Shown piece after piece: positions 1,127 through 7,179 of a DNA stretch of 64,000 nucleotides (position 1 is its first letter; each line of letters starts with the position of its first letter). The notes under the pieces are model-generated. The model ran no database searches. It worked only from the letters and a program-made list of their open reading frames with translations, and was not told where the DNA came from. This DNA is from Thainema sp. Its GTDB lineage: Bacteria > Cyanobacteriota > Cyanobacteriia > Phormidesmidales > Phormidesmidaceae. Where the stretch lies: NCBI GenBank assembly GCA_052168235.1, contig JBQLZK010000018.1, positions 21,843 to 85,842 of the forward strand, in the 5' to 3' direction. The position numbers were made by a program, and so were the translations under genes.

Positions 1127-1924
1127 TTATAGTCTAAGATGCCCAAGATGTTGAGGGGAATGGCTCTGGCGGTGGACAGCAGGTAGTCGATACCACGGCA
1201 CATCAGGGTAGGTATGATGCTCCCAGTGGTAGCCAAAATGATAGCAAGCTAAAAATGACCACAGCGGTGAATAGGAAACGCTATGGATATAAATCTCGGA
1301 ATTTGGAGCTGAGCCATGTTGATTTGGGGCTTTGTGAGGGAGGTAAGTGCCAAAGAAAAATAGCTGAATAGAGCTGAGAATCAGTGGCAGCAACCAGAAC
1401 AGCAAAATGTTGATCCAAGTAATCTGAAACAGGCTGCTGAGAACTACGAAGAAAAGACTGCCGCTAGCTATAAACCCTATAATTTGTCGAATCGGAAAAT
1501 AGGCTCGCATAAAGTTTAGATACCAGCAGAAAGGATGTGAATCGCTGCCCTGGAAATCGGGATCATTGGGTGTGGCGGTTTGGTTATGATGCTGCCAATG
1601 ATTTTTATGGCAGTCACTATAACTGAGAAAGGCATAGAGCCATAGTGCAATCTGCCCTATCCAACGATTCATCAACTTGCTCTGCGGCAGTAAGTTGCAG
1701 TGAATTGCATCATGAGCAATCACAAACAGCCCCGTATGAAGAAATGTCCGCCCCAAAACAGCGCCAATTATCAACCATATTGGTTCAGTATTTAGCGATG
1801 TAGTCAGTAGCTGGATTAGGCTGCCTATCCACAAGCTAATCAGGATTCCGGCGAACAAAGCCCCGATCCAAGTTGTGCGAATGGTGTGTTGGCTTGGCAG
1901 GTTTGATAATTTTTTGGTTTGCAT
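1127..1924 (-). CDS. crtW: Beta-carotene ketolase (fatty acid desaturase superfamily)
   Basis: TGLFVIAHDAIH, HWQHH, DPDF, QLFFFGTYLPH and CYHFGYHWEHH His boxes; lies between ocp and frp. Confidence 0.85.
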   Translation of the reverse strand: MQTKKLSNLPSQHTIRTTWIGALFAGILISLWIGSLIQLLTTSLNTEPIWLIIGAVLGRTFLHTGLFVIAHDAIHCNLLPQSKLMNRWIGQIALWLYAFLSYSDCHKNHWQHHNQTATPNDPDFQGSDSHPFCWYLNFMRAYFPIRQIIGFIASGSLFFVVLSSLFQITWINILLFWLLPLILSSIQLFFFGTYLPHKAPNQHGSAPNSEIYIHSVSYSPLWSFLACYHFGYHWEHHTYPDVPWYRLPAVHRQSHSPQHLGHLRL

Positions 1925-1976
1925 ATTTATTGTTCAGAACCGAGGTTGTGCAGGTTCCTCAACCACACCTTAAATA

Positions 1977-2005
1977 AGAAAGCACCCAAATACAGGGTGC
2001 TTTCT
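1977..2005 (-). terminator. Hairpin terminator/attenuator after ocp
   Basis: AGAAAGCACCC-7 nt-GGGTGCTTTCT followed on the minus strand by TATTT. Confidence 0.65.
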
Positions 2006-2053
2006 CACGCTTGCTCTACGTAATCCCTAATAATTCAAACCAGTGATCAGGAA

Positions 2054-3013
2054 TTAACGTGTTAGATTGAGCAGTTCTTTGGGTGAAGCTAACAAGTCAA
2101 TTGCAACGAAAAAGATCTTGTTCTCTGGTGTCAGCAAAAATCGCCATGCGATGTTCATGCCGACATTAGCGCCAAACCAAGGGGTTTGTACTTTGCCCGT
2201 TACTTTGACTTGAGTGAATCCTTCTTCCGCAGGTTCAGCTACGCCGCGCTCTGGTATCAACTTTAAGTTTTGGCATTCCTGTCTAAAGAATTGGAAGATC
2301 GCATCTTTGCCAACGATGGGGCGGCGGAAAGGTGGTTGTAGTGCTCCATCGGGGGTGAATAACTCAATTAAGGCATTGAAGTCATTGGCATTGAGGTTGT
2401 TCATGTAGTCTATGACCGTCTGATTGGTCAGACCCTCAATGCTAACCTTTTCGCGTTTAGACGCTTCCGTTGGTGCAACTGCGGGTTCTAGCACAACTTT
2501 GTAGTCTTTGATCTGGGCTGGATCAAAGCCAAAGTCAACGACAGCATTGCGTAGTACTGTAATTTGCTGACCCGGTTCTAGGCCGCGCATCGTTTCTAAA
2601 ACGGCAGAAGCATTGGCGGATAGCTGATATCCGGGGGGAATGGGAGCGACTAGCCCTTGATCCATCCACTCGGCTAGCTTATACCAGAAGCCAAGTTTCA
2701 GATTTTGAGACCATGTTGCATAAGTGCGGCAGATGGGGGTGTCAGCATGATTGGCTAAGTCATACATGACCTGTGTTTGCTCAGTAAAGGACATGTCCTT
2801 GATTTGATTGAGCGTGTTTTCTGCAAACTGCATCGGAGCAGCGCCCAAGGCAGCAGGAGTCACCGACTTGCCCATTTCCAGATAAGCAAACCAGATCAAC
2901 GCTAACTGATCTTCTGTGTTGAGCTGACCAAATCTAGCAATTGTTGCGGGGACAACATCTGCTGTCAGAGTCTCAGGAAAGATGTTACGTGCTGAATCAA
3001 CTGTATATGTCAT
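2054..3013 (-). CDS. ocp: Orange carotenoid protein (OCP1-type, FRP-associated)
   Basis: 319 aa; DSARNIFPETLTADVVPA, EDQLALIWFAY, KVTGKVQTPWFGANVGMNIAWRFLL, IFFVAIDLLASPKELLNL. Confidence 0.97.
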   Translation of the reverse strand: MTYTVDSARNIFPETLTADVVPATIARFGQLNTEDQLALIWFAYLEMGKSVTPAALGAAPMQFAENTLNQIKDMSFTEQTQVMYDLANHADTPICRTYATWSQNLKLGFWYKLAEWMDQGLVAPIPPGYQLSANASAVLETMRGLEPGQQITVLRNAVVDFGFDPAQIKDYKVVLEPAVAPTEASKREKVSIEGLTNQTVIDYMNNLNANDFNALIELFTPDGALQPPFRRPIVGKDAIFQFFRQECQNLKLIPERGVAEPAEEGFTQVKVTGKVQTPWFGANVGMNIAWRFLLTPENKIFFVAIDLLASPKELLNLTR

Positions 3014-3237: not shown

Positions 3238-3316
3238 CAAAGGTATTTGTGTCTAATGAACTAAATTTCTGGAGCGGGTGTGCATCTCGTAAATAGCCCA
3301 CAAACCCTAAGAGAGG

Positions 3317-3620
3317 CGAGATCGCACTTCTCTATCTCCAACCTCTGAACCTGCGATCTCACTTTTTCCTCTACTCCCACAGATCAATCCTGCGATCGCA
3401 CTTCTCTATCCTCAACTTCCAATACTGCGATCGCATTTTTCCGGCAATCCCACAGATCAATCCTGCGATCGCACTTCTCTATCTCCAACCTCTGAACCTG
3501 CGATCGCACTTTCCTCTGCAATCCCACAGATCAAAACTGCGATCGCACTTCTCTATCTCCAACATCTGAACCTGCGATCGCACTTCTTCTGCAATCTCAC
3601 AGATCAATACTGCGATCGCA
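3317..3620. repeat. HIP1-anchored dimeric tandem array (alternating 35-bp and 38/39-bp units)
   Basis: TGCGATCGCA or a variant at 3317, 3352, 3391, 3426, 3464, 3499, 3538, 3573, 3611. Confidence 0.92.
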
Positions 3621-3687
3621 GTATGGAAAGCTGTTTTGGCTTGGTTGAAATGCTGTGAACTGCTCTTGAGTTAAGCTTTGCTGTGGC

Positions 3688-3960
3688 GGAATAAGGATTA
3701 GCGGCTCAGCAATGAGCAGTTGCTGGTTTTGCTTATCGGTTAAGGCCAAACCCATAAGCGTTAGTGGCTAAGCAATAAGCGTTTTGAGGTTTTGCTTATG
3801 CGTTAGCGCTAAATCTATAAGCAGTTGCTGCTGGGCAATAAGCAGTTGCTAATTTTGCTTATACGTTAGCGGCAAATCTATAAGCGTTAGCTGTTGTGCA
3901 ATAAGCAGTTGCTGGTTTTGCTTATACATTAATGTCGAACCGATAAGCGTTAGCGGCAAG
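3688..3960. repeat. Degenerate 21-bp tandem array with 63-bp higher-order period
   Basis: GCAAT(A/G)AGC at 3709/3772/3835/3898; TTTTGCTTAT at 3727/3790/3853/3916; ATAAG at 3691/3754/3817/3880/3943. Confidence 0.88.
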
Positions 3961-5196: not shown

Positions 5197-5216
5197 ATAC
5201 CCTTTGTAGTTCTTTT

Positions 5217-5275
5217 GTAGGTTGGGTTGAAGCATGAAACCCAACGAGCGTATGGTTCGCGTCAACTCAACCTAC
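5217..5275. repeat. GTAG-type REP-like inverted repeat
   Basis: GTAGGTTGGGTTGA ... TCAACTCAACCTAC, with internal GTTGGGTT/AACCCAAC hairpin. Confidence 0.7.
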
Positions 5276-5384
5276 ACAATTTGAGATCGCAACCTCTTCC
5301 ATCGTGGAACTGCGATCTCACTACACGAGAGATATAAGTACTCTAATTAATAGACTTTATTTGTTGCATGTAATTAAAGCTAAA

Positions 5385-6479
5385 ATGGCCAATCAGATAA
5401 CTAAGAATCAACACTATATTCCCCGCTTTCTACTAAACAACTTTGGTTGGAGAGCAAATAAAACAAATAGGATAAACATAATTGACATCAACCGTTTTAC
5501 TGCGAGATATGATCAGTCGATAGCAAAAAACTTTTCTCAAAATTACTTTTACGATAGAGATAATTCTGTCGAAAATTGTTTGCAGAAGTACATTGAAGAT
5601 CCTGCTTGCGGAAGTATCAGAAAAATTCTTGATGGAGAGACTTCAATATCTATTGAAGATCGCCATGCCATTCTTATATTTGTCTCCGTACTTTACTTCC
5701 GTACTGTTGAAGCCACGGAGAAGGCTCTTTCCTTCATGGAATCATTTTATCAGTCAATAGTTGAGCAAATAGTGGCTCTCAATGGCTTCAATCCAGATCA
5801 CACTCCAAGGCTGAAAATCAATCTTCAAAATCCTAGTGATTTGACTTCCAGAATGGTTTTTCAAGGATTTATTGATGCAAAAATATTAATAGATCTGGAT
5901 CTTCATATTATTAAAAATAATTCTGACCTAGGTTTTTGCATATCTGATCATCCAGTATTTTTGTACAACTGGTTTTATAAAGACTTAAAGCACCCAGCTG
6001 TAACCAGTCTAACTGCAAAAGGCTTACAAATTTTCTTGCCAATATCACCTAACCTACTAATTCTTTTGTACGATTCAGACACCTATAAAGTTGGCAAAAA
6101 GAATTCAAGTATAACCGAGTCCGAAGATATTAATGATGTTGAAATCTTGAATTCGTTCCAGCTGTTGAACTCAAGATCTATAATAGGTTTTCGCAATCAA
6201 ACGGATGAAATTAGCTTAATGAAGCTTCTCCGTAAAAACAAAATGAATAAAATATATGAGCACAAGAGTGCTACTTCTCGGGTAGAAGACGACTTAACGG
6301 GAGAAATTAAAACAAATCATCTTGTTTTCACAGATCAACTCAAAATAAAGAAAATGCCATCATTTATAACAATAAGGAAAGACGCGAGGAAAGATTTATC
6401 TTCCTTTTATGAAAGAAATCCGGCTCTCTCTGCCATACATCAAAGTTATAGAAATAAGATCTTACGAGCAGAAAACTGA
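5385..6479 (+). CDS. DUF4238 domain protein (candidate antiphage gene)
   Basis: N-terminal TKNQHYIPRFLLNNF, NYFY, F.ISDHPV and IFLPISPNLLILL motifs; visibly AT-rich; start placed at ATG 5385. Confidence 0.8.
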   Translation: MANQITKNQHYIPRFLLNNFGWRANKTNRINIIDINRFTARYDQSIAKNFSQNYFYDRDNSVENCLQKYIEDPACGSIRKILDGETSISIEDRHAILIFVSVLYFRTVEATEKALSFMESFYQSIVEQIVALNGFNPDHTPRLKINLQNPSDLTSRMVFQGFIDAKILIDLDLHIIKNNSDLGFCISDHPVFLYNWFYKDLKHPAVTSLTAKGLQIFLPISPNLLILLYDSDTYKVGKKNSSITESEDINDVEILNSFQLLNSRSIIGFRNQTDEISLMKLLRKNKMNKIYEHKSATSRVEDDLTGEIKTNHLVFTDQLKIKKMPSFITIRKDARKDLSSFYERNPALSAIHQSYRNKILRAEN

Positions 6480-6543
6480 ATTTAAGTTGCTTGTCAATAT
6501 AATCCTAGAATCCTTTCTAATCGTCTCTGTCAATGAACCTGTA

Positions 6544-6572
6544 TTGACTCCAAAAGCCAAATCCCGTACTGT
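6544..6572 (+). promoter_or_regulatory. Sigma70-type promoter
   Basis: TTGACT (6544-6549), 17-nt spacer, TACTGT (6567-6572). Confidence 0.6.
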
Positions 6573-6579
6573 GAAACGT

Positions 6580-6781
6580 TAAGTTGCCTTGGCAACATCA
6601 CCTGCAACGGCAACTGGATACCAAAAATCTAGTCAGCGCTACCCAGAGTTGCGGCAACAACCCTGGATAGCTAACCCCCGGTTGGCGTAGGCAACGCGGA
6701 GGCTTGAGGGATCATAACCCAGAGCCACCCTGCATTGCACTTCAGGATTGCGGGGTGGCTAGGTTTTTGGCTTTCCTCTCG
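6580..6781 (+). ncRNA. Candidate structured leader RNA / cis-regulatory ncRNA
   Basis: Consecutive hairpins: GTTGCC-TT-GGCAAC; GCTACCCAGAGTTG...CAACCCTGGATAGC; CCGGTTG...CAACGCGG; AGCCACCCTGCA...TGCGGGGTGGCT inside GAGGGA...TTCCTC. Confidence 0.45.
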
Positions 6782-6806
6782 AAAGTCAAAAACACAAGGA
6801 AACACA

Positions 6807-7091
6807 ATGACATACCTCTTCCTCGGTGCTGCCTCTGAAGCAGCACCACAACCCGCTGCGACCATTCCCAATCAACCAACTCGCGATGGTCGCCATCCCC
6901 TGCGGATTATCCTGCTCGGCACCCGTCCTGACATCATTGTCACCATCAAAAACCTGCATCGGCGCGGCTTTGCCGAAGCCAACGAATGGAGCCAGCCCAT
7001 CCCCTGCCCCAGTGCCGGAGACGTAGCGCGCATCCTGGCTCAGCGCCATCCCGACGACCAAATCAGCATCCTCACCCGCCATCTCAGCTAA
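6807..7091 (+). CDS. Small cyanobacterial hypothetical protein (94 aa)
   Basis: AAGGA RBS 6 nt before ATG 6807; LRIILLG...TIKNLHRRGFAEANEWS...ISILTR resembles a recurrent cyanobacterial small-protein family (from memory). Confidence 0.7.
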   Translation: MTYLFLGAASEAAPQPAATIPNQPTRDGRHPLRIILLGTRPDIIVTIKNLHRRGFAEANEWSQPIPCPSAGDVARILAQRHPDDQISILTRHLS

Positions 7092-7113
7092 TCGGTTGAA
7101 GTTGAGATATCCC

Positions 7114-7179
7114 AGAAACCGGGTTTCTTGTTTCGCGTATTTTGTATAACCAAATGCTTGCGACAGAAACTCGGTTTCT
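7114..7179. repeat. Paired AGAAACCGGGTTTCT-type palindromes (REP-like doublet)
   Basis: AGAAACCGGGTTTCT at 7114-7128 and AGAAACTCGGTTTCT at 7165-7179. Confidence 0.65.

What the first reader, a model, noticed from the sequence alone, without database searches (positions are those of the whole stretch)
6544..7091. Self-contained cassette: promoter, ~230-nt densely structured leader RNA, 94-aa unknown protein
Seen: a well-spaced TTGACT-17-TACTGT promoter, then about 230 nt almost entirely made of consecutive hairpins (GTTGCC/GGCAAC; GCTACCCAGAGTTG/CAACCCTGGATAGC; CCGGTTG/CAACGCGG; a long GAGGGA..AGCCACCCTGCA/TGCGGGGTGGCT..TTCCTC stem). GTTG/(G)CAAC recurs several times, which allows alternative pairings. 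An AAGGA RBS and a small ORF follow. The unit sits between a candidate defence gene and REP-like palindromes. Inference: an unnamed ncRNA-protein module such as a riboswitch/attenuator, an RNA antitoxin, or a dispersed RNA-plus-protein element. I cannot match the leader to an Rfam family I know.
Basis: partly seen in the sequence, partly recalled or inferred. Interest (0 to 1): 0.7.

Follow-up and report, generated by a model that had tools for sequence, protein, structure and literature searches.

The report
Antisense-switched small-gene module in cyanobacteria
The stretch is one of about 13 copies of a cyanobacterial gene cassette whose folded RNA leader hides a second, backward-facing promoter, predicted to make a small antisense RNA that shuts off a small unknown gene, with copy-specific recognition loops that would stop the copies from silencing each other.

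Summary
Real, and more than a leader. Promoter, leader and 94-aa ORF form a module with 13 leader copies in this genome and up to 30 matches in relatives (20 of 24 same-family genomes). I found no Rfam, Pfam or fold match. New here: a conserved minus-strand -10 box sits mid-leader (99 of 101 leaders; shuffle mean 27). The two hairpins it would transcribe fold better as the antisense strand (99 of 99; 27 of 28 beyond composition), while the downstream hairpin folds better as sense. Their two loops are hypervariable between otherwise near-identical copies (12 distinct pairs in 12 copies). Folding predicts a switch: free nascent RNA forms an antiterminator; with the antisense-covered part blocked, a hairpin plus U-run forms. 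This is pT181/pIP501-type antisense attenuator anatomy, but chromosomal, multicopy and driving an unknown protein rather than Rep. Modules border accessory DNA, and 12 of 50 cyanobacterial integron integrases have one at their 3' end. Nothing is shown in vivo: no stranded RNA data, and the protein's function is unknown. An addiction or toxin role is an inference.

The parts
6526..6543 (+). 5' edge of the block shared between copies
   Evidence: alignment of genome copies
6544..6572 (+). sense promoter: -35 at 6544-6549, 17 nt, -10 at 6567-6572; start near 6579 (inferred)
   Evidence: near-invariant in genome copies and conserved in relatives; not listed by the consensus scan; transcription not shown
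6582..6615 (+). P0, 5' hairpin of variable length
6621..6635 (+). P1 5' strand (predicted antiterminator or pre-emptor). Its A-run 6623-6627 is also the U-run near the antisense RNA's 3' end
   Evidence: cognate duplex -23.7 vs non-cognate -18.5 kcal/mol
6638..6671 (.). P2 hairpin with hypervariable loop L2 (6652-6657); two A.C mismatches on sense are G.U pairs on antisense
6673..6704 (.). P3 hairpin with hypervariable loop L3 (6685-6691)
6623..6704 (-). predicted antisense RNA, about 82 nt to the end of its U-run (family median 84), two stem-loops
   Evidence: z = -4.2 for 6612-6704; strand asymmetry; not shown as a transcript
6711..6716 (-). antisense promoter -10 box (TATGAT here; family consensus TAAAAT, with G at -14); no conserved -35 seen
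   Evidence: 99 of 101 leaders, shuffle mean 27, max 39; G at -14 in 82% of 80, not selected for
6723..6774 (+). P5 hairpin (6723-6760) plus U-rich run (6764-6774): predicted attenuation terminator; 6756-6770 is the P1 3' strand
6763..6793 (+). P6 hairpin, can form only after read-through; ends just before the RBS
6796..6800 (+). ribosome binding site
   Evidence: sequence; purine-rich RBS conserved
6807..7091 (+). 94-aa soluble protein of an unnamed cyanobacterial family (disordered N-terminus, beta-alpha-alpha-beta core)
   Evidence: dN/dS 0.11 over 46 codons in 10 copies, maximum 19-residue hydropathy 0.98; no family or fold match
5304..6479 (+). context: AT-rich DUF4238 accessory gene on the promoter side
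   Evidence: a congener has a different AT-rich gene and no module before the same CHAD gene
7113..7179 (.). context: REP-like palindrome pair, outside the shared block

Best explanation
A chromosomal, multicopy, antisense-RNA-controlled transcription attenuator in front of a small conserved protein. Shown by sequence comparison: two convergent promoter signatures; a sense-strand long-range stem P1 that is mutually exclusive with the base of hairpin P5 and its U-run; antisense-strand stem-loops P3' and P2'; and copy-specific loops. Inferred mechanism: the sense promoter makes a 230-nt leader, and the internal minus-strand promoter makes an RNA of about 85 nt complementary to its 5' half. That RNA docks by loop-loop contact at L2/L3 on the nascent leader and occupies the P1 5' strand, so P5 plus the U-run terminates transcription before the ORF. 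When the antisense RNA is absent or has decayed, P1 forms, polymerase reads through and the protein is made. Loop diversification insulates each copy from its paralogs. Further inference (about 0.35): the protein is growth-inhibitory or otherwise dose-critical, so the module acts as an addiction or guard unit at the edge of accessory-gene hotspots and integrons.
For: Minus-strand -10 in 99 of 101 leaders against a shuffle mean of 27, with unselected G at -14 (82%) and an A start 6-8 nt on in 74 of 80. P2/P3 folds better antisense in 99 of 99, with 457 G.U pairs against 51 on sense; P5 folds better sense in 85 of 99. Against dinucleotide shuffles, one leader per genome: z -5.3 antisense vs -2.8 sense, and the gap exceeds composition in 27 of 28. 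Free nascent RNA forms P1 in 75 of 80 and the P5 base in only 12 of 80; with the antisense-covered part blocked, the P5 base forms in 71 of 80 (window case). Loops: 14 of 14 loop columns vary against 8 of 237 other columns in 7 Oculatella copies, and the P5 loop is invariant; 12 distinct pairs in 12 genome copies. The same anatomy is described for pT181 and pIP501 (PMC5703833, passages). The ORF is under purifying selection. Other family members lie divergent from annotated HTH or ParG repressors, so the family appears to be kept repressed in either context.
Against: No stranded RNA data, so neither transcript nor termination is shown (inconclusive). The 'blocked' fold frees P5 partly by construction. 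The sense U-run begins 3 nt after the P5 stem and is interrupted. On the antisense RNA the U-run lies 6-11 nt past the last stem base in 64 of 69 cases, and 32 of 101 lack an A4 run, so its own terminator is imperfect. No -35 was seen for the antisense promoter. The -10 pattern is lenient: a plus-strand version sharing the same TA occurs in 63 of 101. 21 of 101 leaders were dropped by the stricter parser. The copies are related, so counts overstate independence. There is no evidence on what the protein does.
Confidence: 0.6

Rival explanations
1. Same antisense RNA, but it acts after transcription, as in type I toxin-antitoxin systems such as aapA/IsoA: duplex formation, RNase III decay or refolding that blocks translation. 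P1, P5 and P6 would then be mRNA storage folds.
For: Two complementary stem-loops with copy-specific loops in a multicopy chromosomal family match IsoA/aapA (PMC5416894, passages). P6 wins in full-length RNA. The terminator is imperfect.
Against: The antisense RNA ends about 90 nt before the RBS, and P6 stops short of the RBS with or without it. P1 sequesters exactly the U-run in 75 of 80 nascent folds. The protein is 94 aa and soluble, not a short hydrophobic peptide.
Confidence: 0.18
2. The minus-strand RNA or promoter has its own job, as a trans-acting sRNA or a Pc-like promoter reading into upstream cassette arrays, and the ORF leader is incidental (actuaton-like).
For: The promoter points toward accessory DNA. 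In 7 Oculatella loci the nearest intact upstream cargo genes are on the minus strand, apart from the intI in L031. The antisense terminator is weak.
Against: Upstream genes in this genome face either way, and 4 of 12 intI-linked modules are inverted. It does not explain P1 covariation or the ORF link in 116 of 121.
Confidence: 0.08
3. A C4/CI-like phage or satellite immunity remnant, in which a processed sense-strand RNA pairs with targets up- and downstream in the same transcript (C4/CI features recalled, not from a call).
For: One U-rich segment can pair upstream (P1) or downstream (P6). Family members sit divergent from repressors, as in phage switch regions.
Against: No Rfam C4 match. No loop-complementary target was seen by eye within the module. 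Structure selection is on the opposite strand. Not found in phage or viral collections, apart from one weak 21-residue match.
Confidence: 0.07
4. A ligand-sensing riboswitch of unknown trigger controlling the ORF (the reading of two earlier AI follow-ups on other copies).
For: Multi-helix conserved leader with alternative folds, tied to one ORF family.
Against: The would-be aptamer has hypervariable loops and A.C mismatches on the sense strand. The most conserved unpaired bases read as a minus-strand -10. Up to 30 dispersed matches per genome at accessory borders.
Confidence: 0.07

Closest known systems
Antisense-RNA-mediated transcription attenuation of plasmids pT181 (RNAI/repC) and pIP501 (RNAIII/repR) (PMC5703833, passages read)
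   Same: Long leader, antisense promoter midway through it, a pre-emptor strand that blocks a hairpin plus poly-U terminator just before the gene.
   Different: Chromosomal and present in up to 30 matches per genome. It controls an unknown 80-100-aa protein, not Rep. No origin or Cop gene was seen in the module. No sequence family match. Cyanobacterial host.
Type I toxin-antitoxin aapA/IsoA of Helicobacter pylori (PMC5416894, passages read)
   Same: Multicopy chromosomal modules; antisense RNA inside the 5' UTR with two stem-loops whose kissing loops set cognate specificity.
   Different: IsoA masks the RBS and AapA is a 30-aa peptide. Here the antisense RNA stops about 90 nt short of the RBS, a terminator/antiterminator is predicted, the protein is soluble, and toxicity is untested.
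pSYSA ssr7036/asRNA1 of Synechocystis PCC 6803 (PMC9978351, passages read)
   Same: Cyanobacterial small ORF with an overlapping stem-loop antisense RNA.
   Different: [quoted passage not shown] Ssr7036 is unrelated to this family and the RNA model does not hit that locus.
Actuatons of cyanobacteria (PMC6596454, passages read)
   Same: A gene without its own start site, expressed by read-through from a discrete upstream RNA.
   Different: No antisense partner or switch is part of that definition. Here the RNA stays tied to one ORF family.
C4 (P1/P7) and CI (P4) antisense RNAs with icd/kil/ash (recalled; one search listing only)
   Same: Structured leader before a small, tightly repressed gene in mobile DNA.
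   Different: Those RNAs are processed from the same strand. No Rfam match here.

Membership tests
Antisense-mediated transcription attenuator (pT181/pIP501 type) | Antisense promoter inside a long leader | tested here: met
   -10 signature in 99 of 101; sequence level only
Antisense-mediated transcription attenuator (pT181/pIP501 type) | Structured antisense RNA complementary to the 5' leader | tested here: met
   strand-asymmetric folding; predicted
Antisense-mediated transcription attenuator (pT181/pIP501 type) | Mutually exclusive pre-emptor and hairpin-plus-U terminator before the gene | tested here: met
   terminator geometry imperfect
Antisense-mediated transcription attenuator (pT181/pIP501 type) | Antisense RNA made in vivo and causing premature termination | not testable with these tools
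   only unstranded contigs available
pT181/pIP501 plasmid copy-control loci proper | Controls a Rep initiator on a plasmid | tested here: not met
   116 of 121 leaders precede the small ORF family; no plasmid DNA match
Type I toxin-antitoxin | cis antisense RNA with copy-specific recognition loops | tested here: met
   (predicted)
Type I toxin-antitoxin | Short hydrophobic membrane toxin (usual class; recalled) | tested here: not met
   94 aa, maximum 19-residue hydropathy 0.98; alpha/beta model
Type I toxin-antitoxin | Protein toxic when derepressed | not testable with these tools
   needs an expression test
C4 / CI antisense RNA and other Rfam families | Score above the gathering threshold of the family model | tested here: not met
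Riboswitch | Conserved ligand-binding core on the sense strand | tested here: inconclusive
   loops hypervariable and structure favours antisense; binding untested
Integron gene cassette | Flanked by attC and lying in the array downstream of attI | tested here: not met
   sits at the intI 3' end, outside the array; no attC excess upstream in this genome by a simple pattern scan
IS / MITE | Terminal inverted repeats or target duplication, transposase | tested here: inconclusive
   none seen by eye at copy boundaries or at two sites lacking the module; cargo also differs there, so no clean empty site
Known protein fold families | Significant structural match | tested here: inconclusive
   Foldseek no E <= 0.001; best Z 4.5, rmsd 4.4, 69 aligned

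The most novel reading that the evidence does not exclude
Filamentous cyanobacteria carry dozens of mutually insulated antisense-attenuator switches. Each has its own pair of kissing-loop codes and holds down a new soluble toxin or effector, and the switches are stationed at the edge of integrons and defence-gene hotspots, where they guard or monitor that accessory DNA. This would be a toxin-antitoxin-like class controlled by RNA attenuation, and a natural library of orthogonal RNA switches.
Probability: 0.3. Interest if true: 0.88.

Novelty: new variant of a known kind. Interest (0 to 1): 0.72.

Why it matters
In the passages I read, antisense-driven attenuation is described for plasmid copy control (PMC5703833); one search listing also shows a virulence-gene case (RnaG/icsA). 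A combined search for attenuation, antisense RNA, cyanobacteria and type I toxin-antitoxin listed nothing on this element. An uncatalogued RNA pair with up to 30 matches per genome and selectively diversified loops would extend that mechanism to chromosomes. It gives a direct handle on a large unnamed cyanobacterial protein family (306 clusters at 50% identity) and links it to integrons and defence hotspots. It also offers ready-made orthogonal RNA repressors for cyanobacterial engineering. Every step is cheaply testable.

Tried and rejected
Rfam: no match at three levels; the best hits were chance miRNA, symR and lncRNA scores below threshold. Protein families: none in Pfam, NCBIfam, PHROGs, PADLOC or PDB sequences. 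The Atlas gave only unnamed cyanobacterial clusters. Fold searches gave only weak ferredoxin-like matches (MinE, ACT, PII, CutA) of no weight. Phage or virus origin: no hit; one 21-residue weak match, without the RNA. Ssr7036 homology rejected. L2-L3 intramolecular kissing and loop-to-flank guide matching (bridge-RNA-like) were not seen on inspection and not tested statistically. tRNA-anticodon mimicry of L2 was considered and dropped, because loops are 6 or 7 nt and occur in both orientations. attC arrays upstream in this genome: no excess. Expression: three metatranscriptome contig sets from one study cover 6522-7096 but come from paralogs, are unstranded and include multi-kb contigs, so DNA cannot be excluded. 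mis-registered the -10 in part and are superseded. Three weak RNA-model hits (L068, L069, L076) were dropped before counting. A homodimer prediction was not obtained, so oligomeric state is open. Literature searches (listings only, apart from four papers read as passages) showed no description of this element. Subscription papers and supplementary tables of RNA-motif or dRNA-seq surveys were not examined and could contain it.

Full report
Observation. The leader folds far better than shuffles (z = -5.0). The consensus promoter scan did not list the promoter, and its terminator count (4 against 3.1 expected) is not itself significant, so the case rests on comparison. Rfam gave no match for the window region, for 20 further loci at gathering threshold, or over the leaders in 16 diverse loci at E <= 0.5.

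A dispersed module. The genome holds 13 near-full-length ORF copies (the window plus 12 at 73-90% identity), one partial copy and 7 distant paralogs, and 13 leaders plus one promoter cut by a contig end. Similarity starts at about 6526 and ends at the stop codon. A covariance model built from 32 leaders matched 25 of 41 related genomes (20 of 24 in the same family, up to 30 matches per genome). It matched 11 of 151 in a phylum-wide draw, two of these genomes only weakly, and those hits were dropped. Of 121 leaders I extracted, 116 have the same ORF family within 750 nt. Two are cut by contig ends and three have full flanks without it; L065, L066 and L075 precede another unknown ORF. Covariation: 17 of 42 pairs change on both sides, 0 of 500 shuffles reach that, slid controls give 5-10 (the structure was drawn from these sequences, and they are related).

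The hidden antisense gene. The most conserved unpaired bases in mid-leader read TAnnAT on the minus strand. Among 101 leaders (matches, drawn from the best-scoring loci, not all hits), 99 carry it in the expected window, against a mean of 27 and a maximum of 39 in composition-keeping shuffles. A lenient plus-strand control that shares the TA occurs in 63, so the pattern alone is not proof. In the 80 leaders that a stricter parser handled (21 dropped), two features that were not selected for fit a promoter: G at -14 in 82%, and an A start 6-8 nt downstream in 74. I saw no -35. Independent support comes from strand asymmetry. The P2/P3 region folds more stably as the reverse complement in 99 of 99 leaders, with 457 G.U pairs against 51 on sense, whereas P5 folds better as sense in 85 of 99. 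With one leader per genome and dinucleotide shuffles, z is -5.3 antisense against -2.8 sense, and the gap exceeds composition in 27 of 28. In the window, two A.C mismatches in P2 become G.U pairs in a continuous antisense stem. The predicted RNA is about 84 nt long. Its U-run lies 6-11 nt beyond the last stem base in most copies, which makes an imperfect terminator.

The switch. In the nascent window transcript ending at the U-run, P1 (6621-6635 with 6756-6770) forms with probability 1.0 and the base of P5 with 0.03. With the antisense-covered part held unpaired, the P5 base forms at 0.99 ahead of the U-run. Across 80 leaders, P1 exceeds 0.5 in 75 when free, and the P5 base in 12 when free and 71 when blocked; the blocked result is partly by construction. 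Cognate P1 arms pair better than non-cognate ones (-23.7 against -18.5 kcal/mol). In longer transcripts P6 replaces P1 with or without the block, and it ends before the RBS, which argues against simple RBS gating. This anatomy matches what a review describes for pT181 and pIP501: long leader, mid-leader antisense promoter, pre-emptor, and hairpin plus poly-T (PMC5703833, passages).

Specificity loops. In seven Oculatella copies all 14 columns of loops L2 and L3 vary (mean pairwise difference 0.52), against 8 of 237 other columns (0.014); the 18-nt P5 loop is invariant. All 7 loop pairs there, and all 12 examined in this genome, are distinct. Similar peaks appear in three more genomes, with more background variation. 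A cis-antisense RNA stays complementary automatically, so such loops are free to diverge and would insulate paralogs, as reported for IsoA/aapA (PMC5416894, passages). That this reflects selection rather than local hypermutation is an inference.

The protein. It belongs to an unnamed cyanobacterial family (306 clusters) under purifying selection (dN/dS 0.11, 10 copies, 46 codons), with no transmembrane segment. The model (mean pLDDT 76.6) has a disordered N-terminus and a beta-alpha-alpha-beta core, with no significant match. Family members without the leader lie divergent from small regulators: annotated as ParG or HTH on three plasmids, and recognised by eye, not by a profile scan, at five loci in this genome. 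The gene thus appears to be held under a protein repressor or under an antisense RNA. That it is toxic is my inference only.

Where it sits. In 11 of 11 copies with flanks in this genome the promoter side is lower in G+C than the ORF side (one marginally); across genomes this holds in 63 of 101. Upstream neighbours include DUF4238, KAP NTPases, LRR-COR, PIN, a short pAgo pair and Thoeris ThsA; many have no family match. At two sites shared with a congener the module and downstream gene are kept while the upstream cargo differs. At two congener sites this genome lacks the module, and before the window's CHAD gene the congener has other cargo and no module within about 830 nt. Of 52 integron-integrase loci fetched (the best-scoring), 50 had enough flank, and 12 of these carry the ORF within 900 nt of the intI 3' end, 8 in the same and 4 in the opposite orientation; the RNA model hits 10 of the 12. 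Among the loci, that is 10 of 19 in genomes with an RNA match and 0 of 11 in those without. Five Oculatella copies without a full intI have shared upstream blocks that stop at an attI-like crossover motif (motif recalled). Against a general integron role: 38 of 50 intI lack the module, this genome has no intact intI, only one copy has an attI-like site, and there is no attC excess upstream. The window copy is therefore a hotspot-edge module, not part of a recognisable integron. How the module spreads is unexplained.

Comparison and verdict. It works like a pT181/pIP501 antisense attenuator and is organised like a multicopy type I toxin-antitoxin family. It is a member of neither as strictly defined (no Rep; no hydrophobic peptide; toxicity untested), and it is unrelated to pSYSA ssr7036/asRNA1. 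Two earlier AI follow-ups on other copies, which I saw only after forming this reading, also found the family real and uncatalogued but left the trigger unknown; the antisense gene is the proposed trigger. RNA-seq contigs could not test expression. My odds: antisense control of some kind about 0.78, attenuation specifically 0.6, toxin or addiction role about 0.35. New variant of a known kind; interest 0.72.

Noticed in passing
L2 loops across copies (e.g. L060 vs L078, L063 vs L064, window vs L033, L024 vs L031): Loop sequences often occur as exact reverse-complement pairs between copies, suggesting hairpin-loop microinversion as a diversifying route, or sense/antisense cross-recognition between copies. 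L3 does not show this. Seen by eye, no statistic.
   Followed up: partly
L030:2680-3290: The leader is identical to six other Oculatella copies apart from the loops and a few bases, while its ORF is much more diverged: leader homogenisation or an ORF swap.
   Followed up: no
L065:1501-2397, L066, L075: The same leader precedes a different unknown ORF family in two genomes; L075 lacks most of P3/P4.
   Followed up: no
L031:484-2659: Complete integron platform whose first divergent gene is a Thoeris ThsA Macro-domain protein, with the module directly after intI.
   Followed up: partly
L024:3-2640: Short prokaryotic Argonaute with its partner gene directly upstream of a module in the congener.
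   Followed up: no
L129:49-1070: CRISPR-like repeat array ending about 450 nt before a leader match (below gathering score).
   Followed up: no
L018:3099-3265 (G000 C8; twin at C3): Highly diverged leader version (E 5.7e-5) before a distant paralog, with a divergent ORF resembling a REP-associated tyrosine transposase (label recalled).
   Followed up: no
L155:926-5897 (Trichormus variabilis plasmid D): Family ORF lies divergent from ParG and upstream of replication-related and primase genes; no leader match.
   Followed up: partly
L001, just after the ORF (G000 C63): A tRNA-like gene on the opposite strand follows this copy (seen by eye, no tRNA scan run).
   Followed up: no
window 3300-3960: Two arrays of short degenerate repeats: a HIP1-rich array, then a roughly 63-nt-period array also found upstream of the C28 copy.
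   Followed up: no
window 5215-5275: REP-like palindrome before the DUF4238 gene; the same type precedes the promoter in several other copies.
   Followed up: no
G000:C41:1900-2700: N-terminal intI remnant with attI-like repeats and no module beside it.
   Followed up: partly
window 1127-3013: Carotenoid ketolase-like and orange-carotenoid-protein-like genes (labels recalled from sequence; an OCP gene also follows module L033).
   Followed up: no
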